DNA of 63,996 nucleotides, the filler included, from Mitosporidium daphniae (Eukaryota): assembly GCF_000760515.2 (NCBI RefSeq). It is 8 parts of 8 records of this genome, joined end to end, with 100 filler letters (N's around TTAATTAATTAA, not from the genome) between each part and the next. Parts side by side here need not be neighbours in the genome. Positions count along the whole stretch, not along the records: positions 62,293 to 63,996 come from NW_013546516.1; 7 more parts are not named here. One strand, 5' to 3'. Below, in pieces: positions 62,295-63,996 of this stretch; position 1 is the first letter of the stretch, and the number at the start of each line of letters is the position of its first letter. The notes below the pieces were generated by a model. That model was given only the letters and a program-made list of their open reading frames with translations. It ran no database searches and had not been told where the DNA came from. A program made the position numbers and the translations under genes.

Positions 62295-63482
62295 AGATTT
62301 GCTGTTACTATCTTCGCGAAGAGGTTTTTCTGCAAGACGCACCCTGACGGATGTCCTGAAATCCATAATGGCTGTGTTGGATACCCCTCCGTCGAAAGAG
62401 AACTCGACGCACGACTTGTTCTTGGGAGGATATGGACCAGGCTCTGTTCCGACAAGGCGCTTGCGATTAAGTTTGGACGAGGACAGCTGGAAAGAACTAC
62501 AACGAACCAGTTCATCCATATACAAGGCTATGTCATTATGCAGACCCGTAAACGTTTCCCCGGCATTCTCAAAATCATTCGTGGCATTGAAGACGTCGGA
62601 GGAGTCACCATTAGTACCTGCAAAGGAACACACGGACAGAATGTTGCTTATGTCACTAAGTCAGATACGCGGGTTGACCCCCTCGATCCGTTTGGGGATG
62701 ACGTTACTGGAGAAGAATTGTCTAAAGGGGGTAGCGTCGGTAAAATCGCAAGGCTTATCGAGGTTGCTACTGGACCTGGAGGAATTAACGGAGCTCTTGA
62801 AGAACTTCCAGTAACTGGTATGCAAAATATCCGCAACCTTCAAACATTCCTTCATTTTACACAGAAACCCCATGTTGGTGTTAGATTCAACATCTTTATT
62901 AGCGGGCCTCCCCGTTGCGGCAAATCCCGCTTCGCCTGGAGTCTACTGGGTCTACCCTATGTCAAAGGAGCAGGAAAATGGTTTGATGGATACTCTGGAG
63001 AGAAGACTGCGCTGTTCGACGAATGCCAAACTCTCGGTCGAATCACTGATCTCGTTCTTAAGATCACAGATCGGTATCCAGCCAGAGTAGAAGTTAAAGG
63101 CGGTTCAGTCTGGTTTAATGCTGTAGTTAATGTATTTACATCCAACTTGAGCTTTCGTGACGCATTATGTACTGATAAAGAATCCTTCGATGTTATTGGT
63201 GCGATTGAAGATCGCTTTGCTCTTATCTTGAATGTATCATGTGACCGACTGGGAAAACCAGTTGTGAAATTGCTTGACTATATAAAGAACCCAACTGCCC
63301 CCGCACTTATCATTTGGAAAGGTGCCTCCATAGCCATCGACGACGTTCACGCTTCTTCCAGATTCCCAGTAAGTGACCTGTTGCAATGTATGGTTACCGC
63401 AGGCGTGTTTACCGAAGAACTCGTGTCTTCCGCAGACCCACCTATCGGCGACCTATCCTTAGAACCCGATTCAAGAGAGTAA
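62295..63482 (+). CDS. rep: CRESS rolling-circle replication initiator Rep (HUH endonuclease + SF3 helicase); 5' end in gap
   Basis: Frame is open 81 codons upstream of ATG 62538: motif I RFAVTIF, motif II IHIQGY, motif III NVAYVTK, Walker A GPPRCGKS, KWFDGYSGE, Walker B LFDE, VEVKGG, motif C FTSN, Arg finger AIEDRF. Confidence 0.96.
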   Translation, partial: RFAVTIFAKRFFCKTHPDGCPEIHNGCVGYPSVERELDARLVLGRIWTRLCSDKALAIKFGRGQLERTTTNQFIHIQGYVIMQTRKRFPGILKIIRGIEDVGGVTISTCKGTHGQNVAYVTKSDTRVDPLDPFGDDVTGEELSKGGSVGKIARLIEVATGPGGINGALEELPVTGMQNIRNLQTFLHFTQKPHVGVRFNIFISGPPRCGKSRFAWSLLGLPYVKGAGKWFDGYSGEKTALFDECQTLGRITDLVLKITDRYPARVEVKGGSVWFNAVVNVFTSNLSFRDALCTDKESFDVIGAIEDRFALILNVSCDRLGKPVVKLLDYIKNPTAPALIIWKGASIAIDDVHASSRFPVSDLLQCMVTAGVFTEELVSSADPPIGDLSLEPDSRE

Positions 63483-63505
63483 CCCGCTTCCGTCGTCGTT
63501 ATTAG
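63386..63505 (+). CDS. 39-aa Arg-rich peptide resembling a capsid N-terminal DNA-binding arm; overlaps the Rep 3' end
   Basis: MYGYRRRVYRRTRVFRRPTYRRPILRTRFKRVTRFRRRY, TAG at 63503-63505. Read by hand; below the ORF-track cutoff. Confidence 0.8.
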   Translation: MYGYRRRVYRRTRVFRRPTYRRPILRTRFKRVTRFRRRY

Positions 63506-63507
63506 GT

Positions 63508-63996
63508 ATGCCCCAATGCAAATTTACTTCCCGCTTCCAACGTAGTTTTGATTTTGAAGTCGGAAATATACGTGGTGCATCCGCAACTGACTATCTCGAT
63601 GTTAAAAATGCTGCCAATGTTCTTAACTTTGATGGCGATTTCTGGCAGCTGGTTGGATCTGGTAAACAGGATGGCCAGCAGCTTATGCGTATTGAACAGA
63701 TGGCTACTAAGTATAATCTATTCAAGATTAGTGGTTACAAAGTAACCTGTTCTCTTAATAAGTATACCGGCCTTCGCGAAAGGAAACCCAGATATTCGTG
63801 GTTCCTATCCACCGGTTATGAGGAAGATCAAGCCATGTCAGGATCGTGGAATCCCGATGACCAAGCCAGACCTGTCGATTATATGCGCAATCATCGAAGA
63901 ACCAAAATGCGCAATACATGGATGAAGAATTTGTATCTTAAAAACTTCCCATGGTGTGATGTCGAAGGGCAAGAATATATTTCGAAAGAATTTCAA
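63508..63996 (+). CDS. cap: Putative capsid protein body (jelly-roll), open to window end
   Basis: 163 stop-free codons MPQCKFTSRFQRSFDF...MATKYNLFKISGYKVTC...; the YxxFKIxGxKV pattern resembles CRESS capsids, and it directly follows the Arg-rich ORF. Confidence 0.72.
   Translation, partial: MPQCKFTSRFQRSFDFEVGNIRGASATDYLDVKNAANVLNFDGDFWQLVGSGKQDGQQLMRIEQMATKYNLFKISGYKVTCSLNKYTGLRERKPRYSWFLSTGYEEDQAMSGSWNPDDQARPVDYMRNHRRTKMRNTWMKNLYLKNFPWCDVEGQEYISKEFQ

What the first reader, a model, noticed from the sequence alone, without database searches (positions are those of the whole stretch)
63386..63560. Split capsid: Arg-rich arm is a separate 39-codon ORF ending 2 nt before the capsid-body ATG
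Seen: a protamine-like ORF (63386-63505) overlaps the Rep C-terminus in a second frame and ends at TAG. The capsid body starts in the third frame at 63508 (CGT TAT TAG GT ATG). One extra T (TATTTAGGT) would fuse them as RRRYLGMPQ. The 27-nt GT..TTAG segment 63479-63505 has host intron size but does not join these frames. Inference: either a separate DNA-packaging peptide made by stop-restart translation (analogous to microvirus J protein), a -1 frameshift, an inactivating indel in an endogenous copy, or a sequencing error.
Basis: partly seen in the sequence, partly recalled or inferred. Interest (0 to 1): 0.75.

Follow-up and report, generated by a model that had tools for sequence, protein, structure and literature searches.

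The report
Virus keeps capsid arm as gene
A small Rep-encoding DNA virus carries the arginine-rich stretch that usually starts a capsid protein as a separate 39-codon gene just before its predicted capsid gene; relatives keep this split, and the peptide likely packs the viral DNA and is likely made from the unspliced RNA, while splicing would give the capsid.

Summary
The viral piece is its own 1.7-kb contig, joined to host contigs by an artificial linker. Contigs from two independent studies bridge the arm/body junction without an indel, and three more match gap-free up to the body start. Changes in the arm are mostly synonymous (8 of 12, p=0.004). Capsid homologues at 30-45% identity start at the same Met, and 8 of 10 family Reps carry the imprint of an overlapping M-x-(x)-Y-R-R-R frame. 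So this unclassified CRESS-type lineage encodes the arm apart from a densovirus/smacovirus-like jelly roll. The contig's only TATA box (63279) and only GTRAGT donor (63369) lie just upstream of the arm ATG, and the arm's stop doubles as a good 3' splice site. Unspliced RNA would give the arm and spliced RNA the capsid (about 45%). Reinitiation or leaky scanning is next (30%); frameshifting is unlikely. No RNA or protein evidence was obtained, and the host is unknown.

The parts
62193..62292 (.). Artificial contig linker (N44, six-frame-stop 12-mer, N44); not biological
   Evidence: 7 identical joints in the window; P0003 and P0011 lie on a 1704-nt contig
62295..63482 (+). Rep (HUH endonuclease plus SF3 helicase), cut at its 5' end by the contig start
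   Evidence: Pfam RNA_helicase E 7e-5 (above cut-off), Viral_Rep E 0.13 (below cut-off); the family profile hits solved Reps, best E 1e-27
63279..63286 (+). TATA box candidate for the arm/capsid transcript (inferred)
   Evidence: Only TATAWAWR on either strand of the viral contig; no difference in 63265-63295 in X2 record 1 or X5 record 10, by matching listed with counted differences
63369..63374 (+). Consensus 5' splice donor, 17 nt before the arm ATG (use inferred)
   Evidence: Only GTRAGT on the + strand of the contig; unchanged in 4 of 4 spanning records; encodable 6-17 residues before the arm start in 8 of 10 family Reps
63386..63505 (+). Arg-rich arm ORF, 39 aa, overlapping the Rep tail
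   Evidence: 8 synonymous and 4 non-synonymous changes against 27% synonymous expected, p=0.004, no Arg lost; overlap imprint in 8 of 10 family Reps
63390..63392 (+). Second upstream ATG (Rep-frame Met), with G at +4
   Evidence: it would intercept scanning ribosomes (inference)
63424..63435 (+). Alternative 3' splice acceptor candidate (67-nt intron from 63369); also leaves the body ATG first
63479..63507 (+). Branch-like motif, pyrimidine-rich tract without AG, and an acceptor AG that is also the arm stop, followed by GT (use inferred)
   Evidence: Pyrimidine fraction 0.75, the highest of 6 AGs scored (of 8 present), and the only one with a usable branch-like motif; both changes seen in the tract stay pyrimidine
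63508..63996 (+). Predicted capsid body (first 163 of about 432 aa), starting at the first beta-strand, without a basic arm; cut by the contig end
   Evidence: P0002 is 99% identical and 432 aa; Met1 invariant in 4 homologues; Atlas 0.95-0.96 to densovirus VP4-like and smacovirus capsid clusters; best Z 6.2 to densovirus capsids on a low-confidence model

Best explanation
This CRESS-type virus encodes its arginine-rich arm as a separate, selected 39-codon gene in front of an arm-less predicted capsid; the peptide likely packs the genome inside the shell, and likely comes from the unspliced form of one transcript whose spliced form would give the capsid. Inferred steps: a TATA box inside Rep (63279) starts a transcript near 63310; unspliced, its first AUG is the arm's; an intron from 63369 to 63505 (137 nt, its acceptor being the arm's stop codon; 63435 is an alternative) removes both upstream AUGs and leaves the body AUG first; the splicing rate would set the peptide-to-shell ratio. 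Shown: the layout, its conservation, selection on the arm, and the presence and position of the motifs. Not shown: any transcript, splice junction, protein or DNA binding. My odds: separate gene about 0.9; packaging role about 0.7; splicing as the route to the capsid about 0.45.
For: Separate gene: no indel at the junction in 6 of 6 runs laid. By the tool's 31-letter rule it is bridged by X2 records 10 and 11 (27 differences in 545 nt; 46 in 305 nt) and X7 record 22 (74 in 1378 nt), which are 2 independent studies, and by X1, the possible source, with 0 differences. X5, X21 and X22 (3 more studies) match gap-free to 63512 or 63527 and then diverge; X21 records 5 and 8 are identical to the window over 63488-63512. 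Arm frame 8 synonymous to 4 non-synonymous, p=0.004, against 4 to 6 (p=0.23) for the Rep frame in the overlap. Met1 invariant in P0002, P0007, P0008 and P0009 at 30-45% identity. An M-x-(x)-Y-R-R-R overlapping frame is encodable exactly once, at the homologous site, in 8 of 10 family Reps (40-100% identity) and nowhere in 7 of 7 unrelated Reps. Splicing: the single TATAWAWR and single GTRAGT of the contig lie 107 and 17 nt before the arm ATG (chance about 0.03 each for windows of 150 and 60 nt chosen afterwards); no ATG in 63240-63385; all 8 AGs from 63402 to 63505 leave the body ATG first; 63505 has the best pyrimidine tract and a branch-like motif; GTRAGT is encodable 6-17 residues upstream in the same 8 of 10 Reps, through three different peptides (V-S at -6, V-S at -17, C-K-S at -7), at a background of about 1 per 100 residues. 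Precedent: an intron in the maize streak virus movement-protein gene is thought to affect coat-protein levels (PMC2430021, passages).
Against: All splice evidence is motif-level and partly post hoc. One GTRAGT per strand is expected somewhere in 1.7 kb (0.92). That the three donor third positions stay unchanged is not significant (P=0.24). Back-translation shows only what could be encoded; 2 of 10 Reps (P0016, P0019) have neither the imprint nor a GTRAGT-capable site. DNA of the distant relatives could not be fetched, so their split is inferred; a gene caller avoiding overlap could start a fused gene at an inner Met. The variants are related strains, not independent events, and differences within about 30 letters of a record end are not listed, so 6 of X22's 24 differences are unplaced. 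The 2-nt stop-to-start spacing fits coupled translation equally well. The capsid model is poor (mean pLDDT 40) and Z is under 8.
Confidence: 0.45

Rival explanations
1. Same separate peptide, but both proteins come from one unspliced message: ribosomes reinitiate at the body AUG after the arm stop, or scan past the upstream AUGs.
For: The stop and start are 2 nt apart and that stretch is unchanged in X21 records 5 and 8; no ATG in 63393-63507; the arm ATG has no G at +4.
Against: No TGGGA within 250 nt upstream (the TURBS motif is recalled, and other stop-restart systems lack it). A second ATG at 63390 with G at +4 is kept in P0012-P0014, which goes against pure leaky scanning. It does not explain the donor and pyrimidine tract. 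The most abundant protein would depend on an inefficient step (inference).
Confidence: 0.3
2. Same separate peptide, but the capsid has its own shorter transcript starting inside or after the arm ORF.
For: General knowledge: small DNA viruses use several start sites. Not excluded, since no RNA was seen.
Against: No other TATAWA in the contig beyond 63279 and 63281.
Confidence: 0.1
3. Arm and body are fused in the protein by a programmed -1 frameshift or a non-consensus splice, giving an ordinary armed capsid.
For: The body frame is open from 63463; most CRESS capsids carry an N-terminal basic arm (PMC4498126, passages; 5 of the 50 fetched loci by my reading).
Against: No X XXY YYZ heptamer in 63380-63510; downstream fold z=-0.65. 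GT/GC-AG introns that reach the body frame all have non-consensus donors and either keep at most 20 arm codons or delete at least 12 body codons of the first strand (filtered by length modulo 3). An invariant Met at the body start would not be needed.
Confidence: 0.1
4. Sequencing or assembly error, or an inactivating indel in an endogenous copy.
For: The window is a draft assembly with scattered Ns.
Against: The possible source run agrees with 0 differences over 62990-63996; independent studies keep the offset; no host flank; selection on the arm.
Confidence: 0.02

Closest known systems
Microviridae DNA-binding protein J (and the recalled gokushovirus VP8)
   Same: A short, very basic peptide encoded apart from a capsid protein that lacks a charged arm (PMC7096446, passages).
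   Different: Phage of bacteria with packaging into a procapsid; here a eukaryote-type Rep with SF3 helicase, an overlap with Rep, and splice-like signals. No sequence likeness was tested; the analogy is functional.
Circoviridae and most CRESS capsids with an N-terminal Arg arm
   Same: HUH plus SF3 Rep; the arm has the usual Arg/Tyr-rich make-up and sits directly before the jelly roll.
   Different: Here the arm is a separate ORF, Rep and capsid lie on one strand, and the body is about 432 aa with no Pfam capsid hit.
Mastrevirus virion-sense unit (maize streak virus MP and CP)
   Same: A small ORF upstream of the capsid gene holds an intron thought to tune coat-protein expression (PMC2430021, passages).
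   Different: The upstream gene there is a movement protein and the coat protein keeps its own basic N-terminus (recalled); here the predicted intron would hold the whole upstream ORF.
Densovirus/parvovirus and smacovirus capsids
   Same: Nearest look-alikes of the body by language-model features and fold; parvovirus capsids are also low-charge outliers (PMC7096446, passages).
   Different: 5-16% identity and Z under 8, so the fold only; parvoviruses have linear genomes and NS1 (recalled), and no separate arm peptide that I know of.

Membership tests
Cressdnaviricota (CRESS DNA viruses) | Rep with HUH endonuclease fused to an SF3 helicase | tested here: met
   the profile matches full-length solved Reps (E 1e-27) and the separate endonuclease and helicase domains
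Cressdnaviricota (CRESS DNA viruses) | Single jelly-roll capsid protein | tested here: inconclusive
   Top rows are almost all jelly-roll capsids, but best Z is 6.2 on a pLDDT-40 model; Atlas 0.95-0.96 to capsid clusters; no Pfam hit
Cressdnaviricota (CRESS DNA viruses) | Circular ssDNA genome with a stem-loop nonanucleotide origin | tested here: inconclusive
   The contig is partial; no NANTATTAC in its 1.7 kb; relatives lie on 3.5-kb contigs whose ends were not seen
Circoviridae | Ambisense rep and cap (Type I for Circovirus, PMC4498126) | tested here: not met
   Both ORFs are on the + strand
Circoviridae | Arg-rich arm as the N-terminus of the capsid ORF | tested here: not met
   5-6 Arg+Lys and 3-6 Asp+Glu in the first 40 residues of the 4 bodies
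Smacoviridae | Smaco_capsid family capsid | tested here: inconclusive
   Atlas rank 2 cluster, score 0.95; direct Pfam scan 0 of 4 members
Microviridae J-type packaging peptide | Short basic protein encoded apart from the capsid protein | tested here: met
Microviridae J-type packaging peptide | Peptide present inside virions, bound to DNA and capsid | not testable with these tools
   Needs particles
Mastrevirus-type spliced virion-sense unit | Intron in the upstream ORF is spliced and changes capsid output | not testable with these tools
   Motifs only
Calicivirus-type termination-reinitiation (TURBS) | UGGGA motif shortly upstream of the stop-start site (recalled) | tested here: not met
   Nearest TGGGA at 63250
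Programmed -1 frameshift | Slippery heptamer plus a stable downstream structure (recalled) | tested here: not met
   pseudoknots were not modelled
Endogenous viral element | Joined to host DNA | tested here: not met
   The only join is an artificial linker; in the possible source run the listed pieces are short virus-only contigs. Integration elsewhere is not excluded

The most novel reading that the evidence does not exclude
A lineage of eukaryotic ssDNA viruses has a two-protein virion like a microvirus: a free protamine-like core peptide and an arm-less, densovirus-like shell. The whole core gene sits inside a retained intron of the capsid message and its stop codon is the splice acceptor, so splicing sets how much positive charge is packed per shell, free of the one-arm-per-subunit rule. 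Similar detached arms may be widespread and unannotated in CRESS genomes.
Probability: 0.35. Interest if true: 0.8.

Novelty: new variant of a known kind. Interest (0 to 1): 0.63.

Why it matters
In small icosahedral viruses the capsid's positive charge tracks genome length, and among T=1 ssDNA viruses only microviruses are described as using separate short basic proteins (PMC7096446, passages). A eukaryote-type CRESS virus with a detached arm would show that arm and jelly roll are separable modules, and would uncouple charge from subunit number. In the variants the arm stays near-identical with Rep while the body diverges right after its start. ORFs of 25-50 codons that overlap Rep are missed by gene callers (the arm is absent from the 15-billion-protein collection by exact look-up), so 'arm-less' CRESS capsids may often hide such a gene. 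The virus occurs in public runs of several studies, so the test is within reach.

Tried and rejected
No whole genome is held. No RNA holder listed, so expression and splicing are untested; all laid runs are contigs, no raw reads were seen, and depths were not used. No close relative in IMG/VR or JGI scans: body, Rep (one distant locus), capsid alignment, Rep alignment (28 and 22 loci, all at most 41% identity). Pfam names no capsid family for the 4 bodies. Foldseek against PDB gave no match at E 0.001 or better; against BFVD, 2 matches with TM about 0.2. RNA folds around the junction and leader are no more stable than shuffles (z -0.65 to +1.35). The crude host intron-size scan was uninformative. 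The frame test also listed introns leading to the third frame; only lengths of 2 modulo 3 were counted as joining arm and body. L006 was first taken as a second example, then downgraded because its arm and capsid are in one frame with a single stop. Literature: 10 full-text searches gave no report of a detached arginine-rich arm gene in a CRESS virus; the library lacks most subscription journals, matches exact words only, and no supplements were read. Earlier findings of the scan: nothing. No complex was predicted, because the body model is too poor.

Full report
Observation. The 39-codon ORF 63386-63505 has 17 Arg and 1 Lys and no acidic residue. It overlaps the Rep tail in a second frame. 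The next long ORF starts at 63508 in the third frame and runs off the contig. The 27-nt GT..AG segment does not join the two frames.

Context. The window is a string of contigs joined by seven identical N44-linker-N44 joints. The viral DNA (62293-63996) is therefore a contig of its own, and the actin-family and glycosyltransferase genes upstream are not its neighbours. No genome is held. One cluster member of the capsid is named by its source as a hypothetical protein of Mitosporidium daphniae. The stretch, or parts of it, is also held by 24 runs of 10 studies under several organism codes, some labelled invertebrate metagenome; I laid 6 of them. The host is not determined.

What the genes are. 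The upstream ORF is a Rep with HUH and SF3 helicase parts. Its relatives form a small family at 40-88% identity, on contigs mostly of 2.9-3.6 kb, well apart from other Reps. The body is 432 aa in full (P0002) and has only three distant homologues among 1.84 billion representatives. It has no Pfam hit. Language-model features place it next to densovirus VP4-like and smacovirus capsid clusters (0.95-0.96). A poor model (pLDDT 40) aligns over residues 1-330 with densovirus and other jelly-roll capsids at Z up to 6.2, with the first strand at residues 3-15. It is a likely capsid that begins at the jelly roll.

Is the split real? In one search the possible source run spans 62990-63996 with no difference. 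Two independent studies bridge the junction without gaps: X2 records 10 and 11 (27 differences in 545 nt; 46 in 305 nt) and X7 record 22 (74 in 1378 nt). The only indels listed lie at 62607-62616 in Rep and cancel out. That call showed 40 of 221 differences and left 10 records unlisted. In one search three further studies match gap-free up to 63512 (X5, X21) or 63527 (X22) and then diverge; they do not meet the tool's 31-letter bridging rule, but X21 records 5 and 8 are identical to the window over 63488-63512. Of 12 changes in the arm, 8 are synonymous against 27% expected (p=0.004), and no Arg is lost; the overlapping Rep frame shows 4 of 10 (p=0.23). These strains are related, so the p-values are only a guide. 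Further out, Met1 is invariant in four bodies at 30-45% identity. An overlapping M-x-(x)-Y-R-R-R frame is encodable exactly once, at the homologous site, in 8 of 10 family Reps and in none of 7 unrelated ones. DNA of these distant members could not be fetched, so for them the split is inferred. Error and pseudogene readings are refuted for this lineage.

How the two proteins are likely made. The contig has one TATAWAWR (63279) and, on the + strand, one GTRAGT (63369); there is no ATG from 63240 to 63385. A transcript from about 63310 would meet the arm AUG first. Splicing from 63369 to any of the 8 AGs up to 63505 removes both upstream AUGs and leaves the body AUG first. The AG at 63505, which is the arm stop, has the most pyrimidine-rich tract of 6 scored and a branch-like motif about 23 nt upstream. 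The donor is unchanged in 4 of 4 spanning records, though that alone is weak (P=0.24). A GTRAGT is encodable close upstream in the same 8 of 10 Reps, through three different peptides. I put this at 0.45. Reinitiation or leaky scanning (0.30) fits the 2-nt spacing but lacks a TURBS motif and faces a second ATG at 63390. A second promoter (0.10) has no motif. A fused product (0.10) lacks a slippery site and structure; the introns that reach the body frame have poor donors and remove half or more of the arm, or part of the first strand. No RNA or protein data support any of these directly.

Function. DNA packaging is inferred from composition, position and the arm-less body. A role in nuclear import or chromatin binding is not excluded.

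Comparison. It works like microvirus J, a short basic protein apart from the capsid (PMC7096446, passages), but it is not a microvirus. It meets the Rep criterion of Cressdnaviricota and fails the layout of Circoviridae. The predicted splice switch resembles the mastrevirus movement-protein intron (PMC2430021, passages). Predicted splice sites within capsid genes are reported for two cruciviruses (PMC7468197, passages). Passages of PMC8242157, PMC8307498, PMC7000223 and PMC4498126 describe no detached arm; other papers were seen only as search listings. Ten searches found no report of this layout, within the limits given under Tried and rejected. The TURBS, slippery-site, Kozak and splice consensus rules are recalled.

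Wider occurrence. Among 50 distant CRESS-like loci scanned, 5 have ordinary armed capsid-like ORFs by my reading and 2 have convincing stand-alone Arg-rich ORFs; 4 more loci flagged by the scan were set aside as GC-rich or low-complexity frames. L006 has a 24-codon arm 12 nt before a 414-aa CRESS capsid-like ORF that is unrelated to ours, but the two are in one frame with a single stop, in one contig, so an error or readthrough is possible. L041 has a 51-codon Arg-rich ORF on the opposite strand. Both are leads only.

Verdict. A real, conserved and apparently undescribed gene layout in an unclassified CRESS-type lineage: a new variant of a known kind, interest 0.63. The splice mechanism and the packaging role remain predictions with clear tests.

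Noticed in passing
window 9129-62292: Seven identical N44 / six-frame-stop linker / N44 joints: the window is a concatenation of contigs of about 9 kb, so gene neighbourhoods across these joints are artificial.
   Followed up: yes
L006 255-329 and 342-1586 (+): A 24-codon Arg-rich ORF, then 12 nt, then a 414-aa CRESS capsid-like ORF in the same frame, with a TATA-like motif near 156; a detached arm, readthrough or a single-base error.
   Followed up: partly
L041 3725-3880 (-): A stand-alone 51-codon Arg-rich ORF convergent with Rep; the 436-aa ORF at 1111-2421 has no basic N-terminus and no Pfam hit; Rep is in two frames in a contig with Ns.
   Followed up: partly
window 63512 onward: In runs X5 and X21 the match stays above 90% through Rep and arm and drops below 80% right after the body start: a capsid swap or fast capsid divergence, with the arm staying with Rep.
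   Followed up: partly
window 63369-63462: Splicing from the same donor to the AG at 63462 or 63477 would shift the Rep frame into the body frame, which is open from 63463: a possible Rep-capsid fusion isoform, no evidence.
   Followed up: no
window 63506-63745 (+): The arm's frame reopens after its stop for about 80 codons overlapping the capsid start; readthrough or the 27-nt intron would extend the arm into it.
   Followed up: no
P0002 residues 335-432; P0007 C-terminus: A long, low-confidence, acidic and Ser-rich C-terminal tail in the capsid; P0007 adds a basic end. It could act as a scaffold or partner for the basic peptide (speculation).
   Followed up: no
P0012 residues 1-158: A close relative's Rep ORF has a long N-terminal extension that the other family members lack in the alignment; overlap with the capsid end or splicing is possible.
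   Followed up: no
window 62505-62619: The Rep endonuclease segment is diverged at equal length in X7 and has compensating indels in X2: a variable or recombinant patch.
   Followed up: no
window 61220-61300: Short tandem-like repeats upstream of the actin-family gene on a host contig.
   Followed up: no
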